From IMG/VR virus record IMGVR_UViG_3300014205_000015, positions 1 through 64,000 of that record: a stretch of DNA of 64,000 nt. One strand, written 5' to 3'. Positions 27,520 to 33,059 of the stretch are shown one piece after another; position 1 is the stretch's first letter, and each line of letters opens with the position of its first letter. The translations under genes were made by a program, and so were the position numbers. The notes under the pieces were generated by a model. That model was not told the DNA's origin, did not search any database, and was given only the letters and a program-made list of their open reading frames with translations. This stretch comes from a virus (Duplodnaviria > Caudoviricetes).

Positions 27520-27990
27520 ATGAGCGAACGATGGGACAATCATTTCTTGCGATTGTGTCAGGACCATGCAAGGATGTCGAAAGACCCAAGCACACGAGTT
27601 GGCGCTGTAATAGTCGGACCTGACGGGGAAATTAGGTCGGCTGGATTCAACGGTTTCCCACGCGGAATTCTCGATAGCGACGAACGCCTGAACGACCGAG
27701 ACACAAAGCTAAAGCTGATGGTCCACGGGGAAATGAACGCGATTTTAGCAGCTGCGAGAGTTGGGACGCCGGTGAAGGGATGCACGCTGTACCTCGCGGC
27801 TACTGATTCATCGGGGATTGTGTGGGGCGGTCCTCCGTGTGTGCGCTGTACAGTTGAAGTAATTCAGGCAGGCATAACAGAAGTGGTGTCTTACCCCAAA
27901 CGCAGTGTTCCATCAAAATGGCATGAGGATTTGGCAATGGCTGAAACTCTTTTACGTGAAGCGGGGATTGGTTACAGATGCGTCGATTAG
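27520..27990 (+). CDS. dCMP deaminase (ComEB-like zinc deaminase)
   Basis: SKDPST.VGAVIV, GFNGFPRG, HGEMNAI, PCVRC. Confidence 0.92.
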   Translation: MSERWDNHFLRLCQDHARMSKDPSTRVGAVIVGPDGEIRSAGFNGFPRGILDSDERLNDRDTKLKLMVHGEMNAILAAARVGTPVKGCTLYLAATDSSGIVWGGPPCVRCTVEVIQAGITEVVSYPKRSVPSKWHEDLAMAETLLREAGIGYRCVD

Positions 27991-28783: not shown

Positions 28784-29269
28784 ATGGCTATTGTTGAAAA
28801 AGCAAGAGTGAAATGGGCAGATAAAGAGGCGGCAATTCGGTCGCTCGAGTCTGGCGGTAAAATCGACCCACTGGATTTGATTGAAGCCGCTCGCGATCCT
28901 GAACATCCGTGTCACTCTGATTTCACTTGGGACATCGACCAAGCGGCTGCCGAACGGTGGCGGGATCAAGCCCGTGAGTTGATTCGCTCGTGCAAGTTTG
29001 AAGTGCGAGTGGAAGACGTAGGCAGCAGGGTTTGCATGTACGTTCCATCTGGCGACGAAGATGCAACATTCGTGTCACTACCAAAGATTCGCAGCAAGGC
29101 TCAGGCGTCTGCGGTTGTTCTAGCGGAGGTTGCCATGTTGCTTGGGAATGCTTCTCGGGCATACGGGATAGCGTTGTCGAAAACGAACATTGTTGGCGCT
29201 GACGTTGTTGTTCAGTTGAAAGCGATTCGCGAACTGGTGGCTACGCTGAAGGCTGAGCTAGAGGATTGA
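28784..29269 (+). CDS. accessory protein of the array system (helical, possibly DNA-binding)
   Basis: DLIEAARDPEHPCHSDFTWD...A...ARELIRS; first gene of the operon, directly followed by array 1. Confidence 0.75.
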   Translation: MAIVEKARVKWADKEAAIRSLESGGKIDPLDLIEAARDPEHPCHSDFTWDIDQAAAERWRDQARELIRSCKFEVRVEDVGSRVCMYVPSGDEDATFVSLPKIRSKAQASAVVLAEVAMLLGNASRAYGIALSKTNIVGADVVVQLKAIRELVATLKAELED

Positions 29270-29275
29270 TTCATT

Positions 29276-29593
29276 GGTCAAGGAATGTCGGGGCGTGGTT
29301 CGGCGTGGTGTTTCAGGTTTCGGTATGCTTGGGCGGTCATGGAGAGGTCGGGCTAGGTGCGCTCTTGCGAGTCGAGTCGAGGCGGTCGAGTCCGTGCGGG
29401 GTGCGGAGTGCTCTGGTTGGGTCGGTCCAGGTTGGGTTCGGCGGTCGCGGTTAGGAATGGCGTGCTGCGGCGAGTCGGGGCTCGTTCCGGTTGGGCGGTC
29501 AAAGTGGGTCAAGGCTTGGTGCGAAGTGGTGCGTCCTGGAAAGGCGGTCGAGGCGGGGATTGGAGTGGCCCGTATTGGTCCGACAAGGCGGTC
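29276..29593 (+). repeat. 5-nt periodic guide-like array 1 (6 units, GGTC-NN-[GGY-NN]n-GGC)
   Basis: Units start at 29276, 29335, 29384, 29443, 29497, 29546; lengths 59, 49, 59, 54, 49, 44 (all 5n+4). Confidence 0.92.
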
Positions 29594-29681
29594 AGAGAGA
29601 GAAGGTTTTTGGTTTGGAGAGTGTTTCTCCAGACTCCTACACAACAGGGGTGTTTCACCCCGCAATTAAGGAGAAGCCATT

Positions 29682-30446
29682 ATGGCAAAAGCATCTGGTG
29701 TTTTGGAAGCGATTGAAGTTGAACCACTACGAGTTGGCAGTATGCAAGTCTGGCTGCGTGGTATCACGCCGCTGATCTGTAATCGATTGGCGGCAAAGGC
29801 ACGGCGCGAGCTGTTGCTTCCGAAGGGACGAAAGTCGACGGCGGAAAAGCAGCAATCGCTGAAGCATGATCCGGTAGCTGAGTTCCGAGACAGCATGAAT
29901 GTGCGATCTGGTGTTGGACCTACACGAGTAGTGTTTCCTGCGCCCGCAGTGAAGGGTTCTATGGCTACTGCCGCGCTGGAGACGAAAGGCACGAACAAAA
30001 CGCAGATTGGTCGTTTGGTTCGTGTGGCTGGTTATTCACTGGATGTCTACGGAATACCAGAATTATTCATGGCTATTGTTCGTTCGGCGGACATGGCTCG
30101 GACGCCCGACGTTCGGACGCGAGCGATCTTGCGCGAGTGGTGCATGCCTGTTACCGTTCAGTACGTCAAGCCGCAGATGTCTGAGCAGGCTATTATGCAA
30201 TTGCTTGCCAACGGCGGAATTATCATCGGAGTAGGTGATTTTCGTCAAGAAAAAGGCAAAGGCGATTTTGGCTGCTACGAGGTCGTCACCGAAGCCGATT
30301 GTAAGGACATTATCAAAAATGGCGGGTTGAAGCAGCAAGACGCTGCGATCAAGACTCCCGTCTGCTTCGACAGTGACACTGAAGAACTTTTAGGCTGGTT
30401 CCAACAGGAAGTTAAAGTTAGAGGAAAGGGAGAACTGGTTGCCTAA
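29682..30446 (+). CDS. Cas7/RAMP-like RNA-binding protein (VIPR-like effector candidate)
   Basis: N-terminal beta strand 'WLRGITPLI', FPAPAVKGS helix, RTRA..W core, C-terminal Gly-rich loop GGIIIGVGDFRQEKGKGDFG; flanked by both arrays. Confidence 0.75.
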   Translation: MAKASGVLEAIEVEPLRVGSMQVWLRGITPLICNRLAAKARRELLLPKGRKSTAEKQQSLKHDPVAEFRDSMNVRSGVGPTRVVFPAPAVKGSMATAALETKGTNKTQIGRLVRVAGYSLDVYGIPELFMAIVRSADMARTPDVRTRAILREWCMPVTVQYVKPQMSEQAIMQLLANGGIIIGVGDFRQEKGKGDFGCYEVVTEADCKDIIKNGGLKQQDAAIKTPVCFDSDTEELLGWFQQEVKVRGKGELVA

Positions 30447-30455
30447 CTGTCAATT

Positions 30456-31106
30456 GGTCGCGGAGAGGTATGGCAACATAAGTCACGGTCCGGCGAGTCA
30501 TGTCCGGGCGGTCATGGAATGGTTGGGCACGGCACCATATGGTATGTCGCGGCTTGGCGTGGCGGTCCCGGTTGGGTCCGGTAAAGCTGGTCGGGGCGGG
30601 GTGTTGCGAGCCCGGGTTTGGCGGTCGGGGTACGGTTCGGCACGGCGGGTCGGAGCATGGAATGTTGCGGCGGTCGCGTCGAGGTGCGGTGCGTTTGGGC
30701 GAGTCCAGGCGCGTCGGGGTATGGTTGGGCGGTCGAGGTGAGGAAAGGCTGCGCTAGTTCAGGCGAGTCATGGCACTGGCGGTCGCGGTATGTCCTGACT
30801 AGTCATGTGAGGAAAGGCGAGGCGGGGCGGTCGAGTCGGGTCTTGGAGAGGTTCGGTCCGTTGCGGTCTGTCCGGGCGGTTTGTCAAAGCTAGGCTGCGC
30901 GTGGCGGTCATGGTGACGAGAGGCTGGGTATGGTACGTCGCGGCGGGTCTGGGGCCGGTGAGGCGGTCAAGATTCGTCAGGTCGCGGACAGGCGGGGCGG
31001 GGTACGCTTAGGCGGGCCTAGTCCTGGCGGTCGCGTCGGGGTCTGGAGTGGCACGGTCGGGCAAGGTGAGTCGAGCTCTGGCGTGGTGAGTATCGGCAAG
31101 CCGGTC
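30456..31106 (+). repeat. 5-nt periodic guide-like array 2 (12 units)
   Basis: Units start at 30456, 30510, 30564, 30623, 30672, 30731, 30781, 30829, 30878, 30906, 30965, 31029; junction GGC-GGTC. Confidence 0.92.
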
Positions 31107-31127
31107 GTGATTGACTGTTAAGAGGTC

Positions 31128-33059
31128 ATGCAGCACAATTGCTGCATGACCTCTCCTTTTTTTGATTTAGTCCCAAAAGACCCAATTGAGAATCTCCGTT
31201 GGCGCATTCGTTGCCGCGAGCGTGCATTGGCTGATAAGCGGTTTCGAGACTCGCTATATCAAGCGTGCATGAGTGATCTTTGTTTCTGGATGGCATTTGC
31301 CTGTTGGGGATACGACCCGCGAGCCCGCTTCAAGATCGTTCCATTTGTACCCTATCCACATCAACAAGCTGTGTTCGTGGCGATGGATGAAGCCATAAGC
31401 ACTGCCGAACGTGAAGAACGATCGGTCGACGTGATCCTGGACAAAAGTCGGGCTCAAGGTGGATCTTTTGGATATCTTTGGGTCGACCTTCGGCGCTGGC
31501 TGCGCGATCCAATGTTTTCAGCAGGTTTTGTTACGAAAAATGAAGATTCGATTGATTCAAAGAGCGACTCATCGACGGTGCTGTGGAAAGTGGCATGGGC
31601 GATTGAGCGATTGCCTTTCTGGATGAAGCCCAATTACGAACGGCATCTTGGTCAGCACACTTTCATTAACAACGACAACGGTTCGTTATTGCGAGGATAC
31701 TCTGCAGGGCAAGACGTGGCAGCCGGTGGCCGTACGACTGTGTTCACAGTGGACGAAGCTGGCGCGAGAGACTTCGTTTCAGGTGGCAAAGACGAAGCGG
31801 TTCAGGAGTCTATTCAAGACGTGTCCAACTGCATTCGCATGGTCTCTGCTCGTTACGTGGATGCAGGTGTCTTTCACGAAGCCTGCGAAAACCCAGACAC
31901 GAAAAAGAACGGTATTCATCTTATACTGGACTGGAAAGACCACCCCGCTCAAAGCAAGCACTCTTACATTGTGCGAGAGGGAATCGCGGTTGCCATAAAG
32001 CCGGAAGATCAAGCGGCGGTCACGGAATACCACCGAAAACACCCTGACCTGCGATCCCGACTGGAAAGAAAAGGATTTAAATTTGAAGTGGTTGTTCGCA
32101 GTCCGTGGTACGACTCTCGATGTTTGCGCCCGACAGCCACCCCGCGACTGATAGCTTCGCAGCTCGACCGCAACCCTCGCGGAGCAGTAGGTAAAGTTTT
32201 CGCATCAGACCTCTTGGACCGCATGAAGCGAGAGCACTGCAAGGGTCCAGTTTGGGTGGGCAATCCAGTATTTGACTCAGAAACCTGCAAACTAACGGGA
32301 TTGATTCCCAGGGATGACGGCTTGCTGAAACTGTGGTTCAAGCCGGGCATCGACAACTCACCGCCGCTGGGACCGTTCACCGCGGGATGCGACATCGCTT
32401 CGGGTGGAGTTGGGGCGTATTCCTCAAACTCGGTCATAACGGCGCTGGACGACAGAACCGGGGAGCAAGTCTTGGAGTACACGGTCAAGGGACTCGAGCC
32501 ACGACCGTTTGCACGCCGGGTGGTTGGGCTGTGCATGTGGCTTAGAAACGCACTGCTTGGCTGGGAGGATTCCGGGGTGTCTGGTGGTTTTGCTAAGGAA
32601 ATCATGGAAGTTCTTTATTATGGTTCCGTGTTCTATCGGGACGTAAACCAGCTCGGTTCCCAGAAGAAAAGCCGCAAGCCTGGCTGGCCGTGCCGTGACG
32701 CAGACAAAGCGGACGATTTTGAGCAAATGGCGCTGGCGATGGAGACTGGGAAGTTCGTTCCGCGTTCCGAGGAAATGATTGTCGAGTGTTCTGAATATGA
32801 GTGGGACGGCACCAAAATCATTCACGCACCGTCGAAAAACAAGGGGGCGGCTGACAAGAATCACGCCGACCGCGCTATAGCAATGGCAGGCTGTTGGAAG
32901 GTCTTTAGCACCGATAATGCAACCCGTAAGATTGACACAGACGTGGAAAACGGTCAGAATCCAGAGTACGGCTCGTTTTTATGGCGAGAGCAGCAAGAGC
33001 GCCGGAACGTGAAAACGGGTAGCCCGAAGTTCGGGATTAGGGACATTATTGGACGCTAA
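31128..33059 (+). CDS. terL: terminase large subunit
   Basis: PYPHQ, Walker A-like KSRAQGGS, Walker B VDEAG, RNase H-like GCDIASG, HADRAIA. Confidence 0.92.
   Translation: MQHNCCMTSPFFDLVPKDPIENLRWRIRCRERALADKRFRDSLYQACMSDLCFWMAFACWGYDPRARFKIVPFVPYPHQQAVFVAMDEAISTAEREERSVDVILDKSRAQGGSFGYLWVDLRRWLRDPMFSAGFVTKNEDSIDSKSDSSTVLWKVAWAIERLPFWMKPNYERHLGQHTFINNDNGSLLRGYSAGQDVAAGGRTTVFTVDEAGARDFVSGGKDEAVQESIQDVSNCIRMVSARYVDAGVFHEACENPDTKKNGIHLILDWKDHPAQSKHSYIVREGIAVAIKPEDQAAVTEYHRKHPDLRSRLERKGFKFEVVVRSPWYDSRCLRPTATPRLIASQLDRNPRGAVGKVFASDLLDRMKREHCKGPVWVGNPVFDSETCKLTGLIPRDDGLLKLWFKPGIDNSPPLGPFTAGCDIASGGVGAYSSNSVITALDDRTGEQVLEYTVKGLEPRPFARRVVGLCMWLRNALLGWEDSGVSGGFAKEIMEVLYYGSVFYRDVNQLGSQKKSRKPGWPCRDADKADDFEQMALAMETGKFVPRSEEMIVECSEYEWDGTKIIHAPSKNKGAADKNHADRAIAMAGCWKVFSTDNATRKIDTDVENGQNPEYGSFLWREQQERRNVKTGSPKFGIRDIIGR

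What the first reader, a model, noticed from the sequence alone, without database searches (positions are those of the whole stretch)
30456..30509. First unit of array 2 decodes to a homologue of the system's own Cas7-like gene
Seen: NN = GC GA AT AA AA AC CC GA AT CG = A-D-M-N/K-K/N-T-P-D-I-R. The own gene at 30087-30116 reads ADMARTPDVR (7/10 dinucleotides identical, in codon phase; rough chance about 0.05 alone, so this relies on the terL hits for support). Inference: the system targets the equivalent effector gene of rival phages, i.e. system-versus-system warfare, while its own copy is mismatched.
Basis: partly seen in the sequence, partly recalled or inferred. Interest (0 to 1): 0.85.

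Follow-up and report, generated by a model that had tools for sequence, protein, structure and literature searches.

The report
VIPR guide aimed at rivals' vipr
This 54-base unit is a guide RNA gene of a phage VIPR system (a CRISPR-like system first described in 2026 preprints); its code spells the most conserved motif of the vipr gene as rival phages carry it, and the phage's own copy is altered there, so it is a good new example of a known kind, not a new system.

Summary
Unit 30456-30509 parses as GGTC plus ten nn-GKH pentamers. Its dinucleotides match the phage's own 254-aa gene in codon phase at 7/10.

Relatives match better:
- Of the 120 closest homologues, 32 carry ADMNKTPDIR and 57 carry ADMNKTPDVR. 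Only one shares the window's ADMARTPDVR.
- The exact 20-base gapped pattern occurs in 92 IMG/VR contigs, each time in frame inside a homologue.
- The full 77.7-kb genome has no match with 3 or fewer mismatches.

The gene is a Cas7-like RAMP with a sequence hit to the solved SUSP1 Vipr protein. The locus is therefore a VIPR system: Vipr, an accessory gene, and GGY/NN vrRNA arrays read with a 1-nt skip. Three 2026 preprints describe this system and already report vrRNAs that target other VIPR systems with lower self-match.

What this locus adds:
- The anti-vipr guide sits first in array 2 across a clade.
- Carriers have recoded their own thumb motif (K140R, and N139A here).
- One relative's guide fits the K140R allele better than its own gene.

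This scan has met VIPR before on other DNA (261 notes, at least 195 genomes). Verdict: a new member of a known kind. Expression and silencing were not tested.

The parts
28784..29269 (+). 161-aa accessory gene (vap-like; phrog_15946)
   Evidence: It travels with vipr both in close relatives (upstream) and in distant relatives of 24-42% identity, where it lies directly downstream of vipr. No Pfam or PADLOC family matched and no fold match was found.
29276..29612 (+). vrRNA array 1: six full units of GGTC(nn-GKH)k, followed by a short seventh GGTC tract (29590-29612) that is not a regular unit
   Evidence: Parsed. Unit lengths are 44-59 nt (4+5k).
29682..30446 (+). vipr gene: 254-aa Cas7-like RAMP
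   Evidence: A profile hit to PDB 36pp 'SUSP1 Vipr protein' has E=1.7e-5 over the G-loop. The AF2 model has pLDDT 83, and its top Foldseek hits are Csm3, type VII Cas7 and Cmr4 at E about 1e-5. The family has 1482 homologues.
30087..30116 (+). Own-gene site homologous to the guide's target (ADMARTPDVR, thumb hairpin tip)
   Evidence: It matches the guide at 7/10 dinucleotides (15/20 bases). N139 is nearly invariant in the family but is Ala here, and K140 is Arg. It lies in the loop between strands 126-134 and 143-150 of the model, just before R147. By offset from the alignment, which starts at query 146 / SUSP1 137, R147 corresponds to the SUSP1 thumb residue R138.
30456..30509 (+). The finding: first vrRNA unit of array 2, an anti-vipr guide with nn = GC GA AT AA AA AC CC GA AT CG
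   Evidence: Searches give the sequence and parse. It matches 92 viral contigs at 10/10, all inside vipr homologues. It matches close relatives at 9/10 to 10/10.
30456..31106 (+). vrRNA array 2: about 12 abutting units with GGC|GGTC junctions
   Evidence: Parsed. The 5k-1 unit length shifts the register by one base at each junction, which fits the 'staggered arrays' with 1-nt overlap in fig. S18 of the discovery preprint.
30564..30622 (+). Unit whose code spells PCPNCGGVDRF
   Evidence: It matches related loci at 11/11 (L018 and two others). The best self-match is 6/11.
30878..30905 (+). Conserved 28-nt element without the pentamer pattern inside array 2
   Evidence: It is present at the same relative place in L001, L002, L004, L005, L006, L107 and L109. 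Its function is unknown.
30965..31028 (+). Unit aimed at the terL Walker A region of relatives
   Evidence: It matches terL of L002 and L004 at 11/12, and the phage's own terL (31443-31477) at 8/12. Shuffle p is about 0.01 within the window.
31029..31102 (+). Unit aimed at a second terL site of relatives
   Evidence: It matches L002 and L004 at 11/14, and the phage's own terL (31521-31561) at 10/14. None of 200 shuffles reached that score.
31121..31165 (+). Intrinsic-terminator-like hairpin plus T-run that closes array 2
   Evidence: Read directly from the sequence. The T-run follows the hairpin on the + strand only.

Best explanation
The region is a phage VIPR locus: a vap-like gene, vrRNA array 1, vipr, and vrRNA array 2, directly upstream of terL. 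Unit 30456-30509 is one vrRNA guide.

By analogy with the solved SUSP1 and P. fulva systems, Vipr protomers would polymerise on the RNA. Each would bury one G-K-H triplet and expose the next two bases. The ten exposed dinucleotides would pair with the target DNA strand while skipping every third base, which is the wobble position. The bound filament would block transcription.

The guide's code equals codon positions 1-2 of ADMNKTPD(I/M)R. This is the most conserved stretch of the Vipr family and lies at the tip of the RNA-binding thumb. The guide is therefore aimed at the vipr genes of competing VIPR-bearing phages. The carrier's own gene reads ADMARTPDVR, which is 7/10 dinucleotides or 15/20 bases. 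That falls below the 80% match the preprints use to call a target, so the phage should spare itself.

Shown here: the array grammar, the Cas7-like fold, the homology to Vipr, the code matches and the self-mismatch. Inferred: transcription and processing of the units, binding, silencing and its benefit.
For: - Array grammar and periodicity.
- Protein identity: Cas7-like fold and a sequence hit to SUSP1 Vipr that includes the GVGDxR G-loop.
- Conserved vap-like partner gene.
- Phage context: a complete 77.7-kb virus record with terminal repeats, terL and portal.
- Code match to relatives: 92 of 92 exact pattern matches in IMG/VR lie in frame in vipr homologues. Seven of 8 close relatives and 36 of 39 genome-contig relatives match at 8/10 or better. 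The locus-search tool itself chose AD[MI]N[KR]TPD[IVM] as the most conserved peptide of the family alignment.
- Self-mismatch: 7/10, with no site of 3 or fewer mismatches anywhere in the full genome. Ala at position 139 occurs only in the window and its 97% sister (P0001), and one further homologue (P0037) has Lys there, among the 120 closest homologues.
- Skip rule: the 1-nt skip gives more hits at 80% or better (15 of 137 units) than the 0-nt skip (3) or the 2-nt skip (2); shuffled guides gave 4.
- Other guides of the same arrays hit relatives' terL and a PCPNCGGVDRF motif better than the phage's own genes.
- Published mechanism and precedent: bioRxiv 10.64898/2026.04.26.720920.720927 and 10.64898/2026.10.15.759431.
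Against: - No expression or processing data exist for this locus. The discovery preprint lists staggered arrays as an architecture not yet confirmed by small-RNA sequencing.
- The fourth triplet of the unit is CAT, not GGY. It is also aberrant in every relative's version, which could weaken Vipr binding at that position.
- Self-avoidance is not absolute in the clade. L001 carries the same guide and its own gene matches it at 8/9.
- How many mismatches abolish binding is not known for this Vipr.
- The 92 perfect matches are in relatives of 40-52% identity. Relatives of similar distance found in genome contigs lie in MAGs and genomes of other phyla, so many may never meet this phage. The perfect match reflects motif conservation as much as a specific enemy.
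- The link between the guide and the own-gene substitution rests on one clade, and the lineages are not independent.
Confidence: 0.82

Rival explanations
1. The unit is an autoregulatory guide. It binds the phage's own vipr gene weakly through partial complementarity and tunes Vipr, array 2 and perhaps terL expression, rather than attacking rivals.
For: - Its best match in the phage's genome is its own vipr gene.
- The unit holds a fixed place directly after the vipr stop codon in several relatives.
- In L001 the self-match is 8/9.
- Partial-match guides are known to regulate rather than destroy in CRISPR systems (background knowledge, not tested here).
Against: - The guide matches the family consensus at 20/20 bases but the carrier's own gene at only 15/20. 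Two adjacent central dinucleotides are fully mismatched.
- No carrier in the sample has a perfect self-match: W 7/10, L001 8/9, L116 7/9.
- The preprints found no self hits at 80% or better and use that level as the target threshold.
Confidence: 0.1
2. The unit is an inherited relic that is no longer used. The match to the family motif is left over from an ancestor, and the own-gene substitutions are unrelated drift.
For: The same unit is decayed or truncated in several relatives: L002 and L118 keep 6 matching dinucleotides, and L107, L109 and L004 keep remnants of 3-4 pentamers.
Against: - In the window the unit is full length, in register, and still perfect against the consensus at all 20 informative bases.
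- N139 is otherwise nearly invariant in the family. Ala at this position occurs only in this guide-bearing lineage, and one other homologue has Lys.
Confidence: 0.05
3. The arrays are protein-binding repeats without guide information, such as a TRAP-like RNA wrap or a terminase recognition site upstream of terL. On this view the dinucleotide matches are chance.
For: - The layout of triplets with 2-nt spacers and 8-14 repeats per unit resembles TRAP binding sites (background knowledge).
- The arrays lie just upstream of terL.
Against: - 92 of 92 exact matches fall in one gene family, in frame.
- Shuffle tests give about 2e-4 for the own-gene match.
- Several units hit relatives' genes.
- The dinucleotides of a shared unit are kept while its triplets drift (unit 30623 against L107).
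- The flanked protein is a Vipr homologue.
Confidence: 0.02

Closest known systems
Type II VIPR systems of Escherichia phage SUSP1 and the Pseudomonas fulva prophage (bioRxiv 10.64898/2026.04.26.720920 and 10.64898/2026.04.26.720927)
   Same: - A lone Cas7-like Vipr protein, a small accessory gene, and guide RNAs of alternating GGY and NN on the gene strand.
- The 1-nt skip rule, with skipped bases on wobble positions.
- Phage-borne, with targets in competing mobile elements, including other VIPR systems.
- The GVGDxR G-loop and the thumb arginine are conserved.
   Different: - Vipr is 254 aa here against 202 aa. Sequence similarity is detectable only around the G-loop (E=1.7e-5).
- Units are 44-74 nt and abut directly, with no pseudoknot tail per guide.
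- The triplet is looser: GGY 52%, GGA 8%, GTC 17%.
- The accessory gene lies upstream of vipr.
- There are about 18 guides instead of 4.
Staggered vrRNA arrays (fig. S18 of 10.64898/2026.04.26.720920)
   Same: Guides follow one another without spacers, and the end of one marks the start of the next with a 1-nt overlap. That is what a 5k-1 unit length with GGC|GGTC junctions gives.
   Different: Only the figure legend could be read, so identity of architecture and VIPR type could not be verified. The preprint does not report sRNA-seq confirmation of this architecture.
Solo vrRNAs of VIPR-null SUSP1-family phages that target relatives' vipr (bioRxiv 10.64898/2026.10.15.759431)
   Same: Guides are aimed at the vipr gene of competitors, and self-match scores are lower than non-self scores.
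   Different: - Those phages have lost vipr, so they have no self gene to protect. Here a VIPR-positive phage keeps vipr and carries amino-acid changes in its own thumb motif at the guide's informative positions.
- Their guides map to the first codons or the end of vipr. This one maps to the thumb, at codons 136-145.
Class 1 CRISPR Cas7 backbone (Csm3, Cmr4, type VII Cas7)
   Same: RRM core, G-loop and thumb fold. The filament forms on a guide RNA, with thumbs breaking the duplex periodically.
   Different: - There are no CRISPR repeats, no Cas6, Cas5 or large subunit, and no adaptation genes.
- The period is 5 nt on the guide against 3 nt on the target, instead of 6 against 6.

Membership tests
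VIPR system | Vipr protein: a minimal RAMP with RRM core, G-loop and thumb, homologous to described Vipr proteins | tested here: met
   The profile of 50 homologues hits PDB 36pp_D 'SUSP1 Vipr protein' at E=1.7e-5 across the G-loop. The AF2 model (pLDDT 83) has Csm3 and type VII Cas7 as its best PDB folds at E about 1e-5.
VIPR system | vrRNA genes made of tandem pentamers, a conserved GGY-type triplet alternating with a hypervariable NN, next to vipr on the same strand | tested here: met
   There are 172 pentamers in two arrays flanking the gene. The NN positions carry 0.10 and 0.00 bits; the triplet is G 93%, G/T 90%, C/T 86%. Relatives have the same grammar with different NN content.
VIPR system | NN code matches natural targets under the 1-nt skip rule, with skipped bases on codon wobble positions | tested here: met
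   Four units of this phage match relatives' genes in frame at 79-100%: vipr 10/10, PCPNCGGVDRF 11/11, terL 11/12 and 11/14. Across 137 units, the 1-nt skip gives 15 hits at 80% or better, the 0-nt skip 3, the 2-nt skip 2, and shuffles 4. The excess at the 3-nt skip (43 hits) comes from homologous units shared between arrays.
VIPR system | Adjacent accessory (vap) gene | tested here: inconclusive
   A 153-198 aa gene stays next to vipr in close and distant relatives. No family, solved relative or fold match was found, so assignment to vap1-6 could not be made.
VIPR system | Encoded by a virus or provirus | tested here: met
   The window is part of a 77,730-bp virus record with direct terminal repeats, estimated complete. 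terL and portal lie directly downstream.
VIPR system | No self-target at 80% NN match or better | tested here: met
   Across all 18 parsed units, the best self-matches within the window are below 80%. For the unit in question, no site with 3 or fewer mismatches exists in the whole genome.
VIPR system | vrRNAs are expressed, bind Vipr, and direct sequence-specific dsDNA binding and silencing | not testable with these tools
   No RNA run holding this DNA was listed. This feature needs sRNA-seq, pull-down and reporter assays.
Type II VIPR (SUSP1 / P. fulva clade) | Each vrRNA of about 100 nt ends in an invariant structured 3' tail (a pseudoknot in the SUSP1 clade) | tested here: not met
   Units of 44-74 nt abut at GGC|GGTC junctions with no tail between them. 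Rfam gave no match. Only one 28-nt conserved element (30878-30905) and a conserved array end are present.
CRISPR-Cas (class 1) | Array of identical direct repeats with spacers, plus further cas genes | tested here: not met
   The tandem-repeat finder reports no long direct repeats in the arrays. The neighbours are a small accessory gene and terL.

The most novel reading that the evidence does not exclude
The thumb-coding site of vipr is the site of an arms race inside one phage clade.

An ancestor placed an anti-vipr guide first in array 2 and recoded its own essential thumb motif at the protein level. K140R always uses CGN codons, which mismatch both guide bases. The window's lineage added N139A.

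Some descendants then let the guide decay. One relative (L116) keeps the consensus allele in its own gene, but its guide has changed at the same two positions. That guide now fits the K140R/V144 'escape' allele at 8/9 and its own gene at only 7/9.

If so, guides track escape alleles, and self/non-self discrimination in VIPR-positive phages is bought by amino-acid changes in the effector itself.
Probability: 0.4. Interest if true: 0.5.

Novelty: new member of a known kind. Interest (0 to 1): 0.35.

Why it matters
This does not reveal a new kind of system. VIPR, its gapped code and VIPR-against-VIPR targeting were in preprints from April to October 2026.

The value is threefold:
- It is a clean natural example in a clade distant from the studied ones. 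The closest genome-contig relatives sit in Planctomycetota bins, and the arrays are of the staggered kind that has not yet been confirmed experimentally.
- It shows a VIPR-positive phage aiming a guide at the single most conserved motif of its own effector family while carrying rare amino-acid changes at exactly the bases the guide reads. That gives a concrete, testable case of how self is spared.
- It offers allele pairs for measuring the mismatch tolerance of a Vipr filament: consensus, K140R, and N139A+K140R+V144.

Tried and rejected
- My first working idea was that the nn bases were meaningless spacers and the arrays were protein-binding sites (TRAP-like RNA, or a terminase/pac site upstream of terL). 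I dropped it.
- Pfam, PADLOC and Rfam gave nothing for the two genes or the arrays. PHROGs gave only families of unknown function.
- The accessory protein was modelled (pLDDT 83, pTM 0.43) but had no Foldseek match at E of 0.001 or better. Its only sequence matches to solved structures were weak ones to a coiled-coil.
- I searched for other carriers of the same guide. A strict pattern found 0 viral contigs. A relaxed pattern found only L001's contig among viral contigs and 0 in the metagenome contigs. A wide test of guide against own allele was therefore not possible.
- Four of eleven exact-protein look-ups returned no DNA or only short contigs.
- Sequencing runs: no RNA holder was listed.
- The VIPR type (I-VII) could not be assigned, because the type definitions are in figures and data files that are not held as text.
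- The 3-nt-skip excess was examined and put down to homologous units shared between related arrays, not to a second targeting rule.

Full report
**What is in the sequence.**
Between a 161-aa gene (28784-29269) and the large terminase gene there are two G-rich stretches on the + strand, 29276-29612 and 30456 to about 31106. They flank a 254-aa gene at 29682-30446. Both stretches parse into abutting units of the form GGTC followed by k pentamers, with k between 8 and 14. Unit lengths are therefore 4+5k and junctions read GGC|GGTC.

Over 172 pentamers the first two positions carry no information (0.10 and 0.00 bits). Position 3 is G in 93%, position 4 is G or T in 90%, and position 5 is C or T in 86%. 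Autocorrelation peaks at lags of 5, 10, 15 and so on. A hairpin plus T-run at about 31121-31165 closes array 2 on the + strand. The window belongs to a 77,730-bp virus record with terminal repeats, estimated complete.

**The observation.**
Unit 30456-30509 gives GC GA AT AA AA AC CC GA AT CG. The own gene at 30087-30116 reads GCG GAC ATG GCT CGG ACG CCC GAC GTT CGG (ADMARTPDVR, residues 136-145).

This site is the best hit of the unit in the whole window. Order-shuffled guides reach 7/10 somewhere in the window in 9% of trials. They reach it in frame within the own gene in only 4 of 20,000 trials.

Among the 120 closest homologues (70-97% identity) the motif reads as follows:

| Motif | Count |
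|---|---|
| ADMNKTPDVR | 57 |
| ADMNKTPDIR | 32 |
| ADMNRTPD(V/I)R | 12 |
| ADMARTPDVR (the window's version) | 1 (the 97% sister, P0001) |

The exact gapped pattern of 20 specified bases occurs in 92 IMG/VR contigs. All 92 matches lie in frame inside homologues of the gene (40-52% identity) and read AD(M/I)NKTPD(I/M)R.

In loci found without using the pattern, 7 of 8 close relatives match at 8/10 or better. One (L117) matches at 10/10. Of 39 genome-contig relatives, 36 match at 8/10 or better, but those were retrieved partly through this same peptide. The locus-search tool chose AD[MI]N[KR]TPD[IVM] as the most conserved peptide of the family alignment. The whole genome of the phage has no site with 3 or fewer mismatches to the pattern.

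**Support from other units.**
- Units 30965 and 31029 match the phage's own terL at 8/12 and 10/14 (shuffle p about 0.01 and below 0.005). They match terL of relatives L002 and L004 at 11/12 and 11/14.
- L002's own last units match terL of L004 and L001 at 9/10.
- Unit 30564 matches a PCPNCGGVDRF-coding site in related loci at 11/11, against 6/11 for its best self-match.
- Across 137 units from 14 related phages, the 1-nt skip gives 15 units with a non-self hit at 80% or better. The 0-nt skip gives 3, the 2-nt skip gives 2, and shuffled guides give 4.
- The 43 hits at the 3-nt skip are homologous units shared between arrays.
- A shared unit (30623 in the window, 2533 in L107) keeps all nine dinucleotides while five of its triplets differ. 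Selection therefore acts on the dinucleotides.

**What the protein is.**
Pfam and PADLOC find nothing. PHROGs gives phrog_4652, of unknown function.

A profile of 50 homologues hits one solved structure, 36pp 'SUSP1 Vipr protein', at E=1.7e-5. The hit covers the segment that holds the G-loop GVGDxR. The AlphaFold model (pLDDT 83, pTM 0.80) has Csm3, type VII Cas7, Cmr4 and Cas7-11 as its best PDB matches, at E about 1e-5 and probability 1.0.

The guide's target, residues 136-145, is the loop between strands 126-134 and 143-150, which is the thumb hairpin. It lies directly before R147. By offset from the alignment (which starts at query 146 / SUSP1 137), R147 corresponds to SUSP1 R138, the thumb residue that holds G2 of the GGY motif.

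**What is known.**
Three 2026 preprints describe this system as VIPR.
- The discovery paper (10.64898/2026.04.26.720920) reports Vipr, an accessory vap gene and vrRNAs of alternating GGY/NN. It reports a 1-nt skip rule with skipped bases on wobble positions, dsDNA binding and transcriptional silencing, and targets in competing phages and satellites. [quoted passage not shown]
- The structure paper (10.64898/2026.04.26.720927) shows one protomer per repeat. The GGY bases are flipped into the protein, NN pairs with two of every three target bases, and an R-loop triplex forms.
- The competition paper (10.64898/2026.10.15.759431) shows solo vrRNAs on vipr-less phages that target relatives' vipr, with self-match lower than non-self match.

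The present locus meets the defining features that can be tested on sequence. It lacks the per-guide tail of type II and fits the staggered architecture. The VIPR type could not be assigned.

**What this locus adds.**
Versions of the same anti-thumb guide occupy the first position of array 2 in a clade of relatives:

| Locus | First unit of array 2 | Own gene |
|---|---|---|
| Window | Full guide, 10 dinucleotides | AR..V allele, 7/10 match |
| L001 | Full guide, 9 dinucleotides | NR..I allele, 8/9 match |
| L116 | Variant guide, positions 5 and 9 are ct and gt | NK..I allele, 7/9 match; the guide fits the NR..V allele at 8/9 |
| L002, L118 | Decayed guide | NR..V allele |
| L107, L109, L004 | Remnants of 3-4 pentamers | AR..V (L107, L109); NR..I (L004) |

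In the 11-member inner clade that holds these guides, 8 members have K140R, always with a CGN codon. In the outgroup clade, 4 of 5 keep the consensus NK. Ala139 is confined to the window and its sister, although N139 is at least 90% conserved across the wider alignment.

The lineages are few and not independent, and L001's 8/9 self-match shows that avoidance is not absolute.

**Mechanism, with status.**
- Shown here: the grammar, the fold and homology, the code matches, the self-mismatch and the phage context.
- Taken from the preprints for other VIPR types: filament assembly on the RNA, gapped pairing, the triplex and silencing.
- Inferred for this locus: transcription from the + strand through both arrays to the terminator; processing at the junctions; binding of rival vipr DNA at codons 136-145 as a roadblock, which would also cut off the rival's array 2; and a benefit in co-infection or against resident prophages.

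The guide has the sense of the coding strand, so it would pair with the template strand. The preprint reports that either strand works.

**Limits.**
- No RNA data exist for this DNA.
- The fourth triplet of the unit is CAT and is aberrant in all relatives.
- Mismatch tolerance is unknown.
- Many of the perfect matches are in relatives of 40-52% identity. Relatives of similar distance found in genome contigs lie in MAGs and genomes of other phyla. The closest genome-contig relatives (73%) are in bins labelled Planctomycetaceae and Thermoguttaceae, which is only a hint about the host.

**Verdict.**
The kind of system and the kind of target are already in the literature. This scan has also met VIPR often on other DNA: 261 notes in at least 195 genomes, including guides whose owners' copies are altered at the bases the guide reads. 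This is a new member of a known kind, with a modestly new detail, namely protein-level recoding of the effector's own thumb motif in a VIPR-positive carrier.

Noticed in passing
window 30878-30905: A conserved 28-nt element (GGTTTGTCAAAGCTAGGCTGCGCGTGGC) breaks the pentamer pattern inside array 2. It recurs at the same relative place in L001, L002, L004, L005, L006, L107 and L109. In the window and L002, the units that follow it are the ones aimed at terL. It could be a processing signal, an internal promoter or a tail-like module; which is unknown.
   Followed up: partly
window 30564-30622: This unit's code matches a PCPNCGGVDRF-coding site in related viral loci at 11/11 (L018 and two others). 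The best self-match is 6/11. It looks like a zinc-ribbon motif of a replication protein in rival phages.
   Followed up: partly
L116:2269-2330 (first unit after vipr): A variant of the anti-thumb guide (gc ga at aa ct ac cc ga gt) fits the K140R/V144 allele of other phages at 8/9, and its owner's consensus allele at only 7/9. This may be a guide tracking an escape allele.
   Followed up: partly
L107:2517-2535 and L109 (same place): The 97% sister phage keeps the ADMARTPDVR allele, but its anti-vipr unit is cut down to three pentamers (gc ta at). The guide was lost after the self-protecting substitutions arose.
   Followed up: yes
window 30623-30671 and L107:2533-2581: The two phages share the same nine dinucleotides (gg ac tc ac gg gg at at gc) while five of the nine triplets differ. 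The dinucleotides are conserved and the scaffold drifts. No target was found in the DNA held here.
   Followed up: partly
L094:4951-7346; L025:1590-2710; L010:7317-8005: Distant relatives (40-46% Vipr identity) have the order vipr, vap, array. Their G[GT]NNN pentamer tracts are far longer, about 2.4 kb in L094.
   Followed up: no
L119, L120 (genome contigs): The closest relatives in bacterial assemblies (73% Vipr identity) sit in bins labelled Planctomycetaceae and Thermoguttaceae. More distant ones are in Alphaproteobacteria, Actinomycetota and other genomes. This is a hint about the host only.
   Followed up: no
Gordonia phages Pipp (MN234179.1:32483-33061) and UmaThurman (NC_031249.1:32738-33316): The only GenBank phage records with a tblastn match to this Vipr (24-25% identity, E 2e-9 to 2e-8) are annotated as hypothetical proteins. 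They may be Vipr homologues in cultured actinophages.
   Followed up: no
window 31128-31165: The longest terL reading frame starts at an ATG inside the terminator hairpin of array 2. The true terL start is probably further downstream.
   Followed up: no
window 27520-27987: A dCMP deaminase gene (Pfam PF00383, E=1.6e-16) lies about 0.8 kb upstream of the accessory (vap-like) gene that opens the VIPR locus.
   Followed up: no
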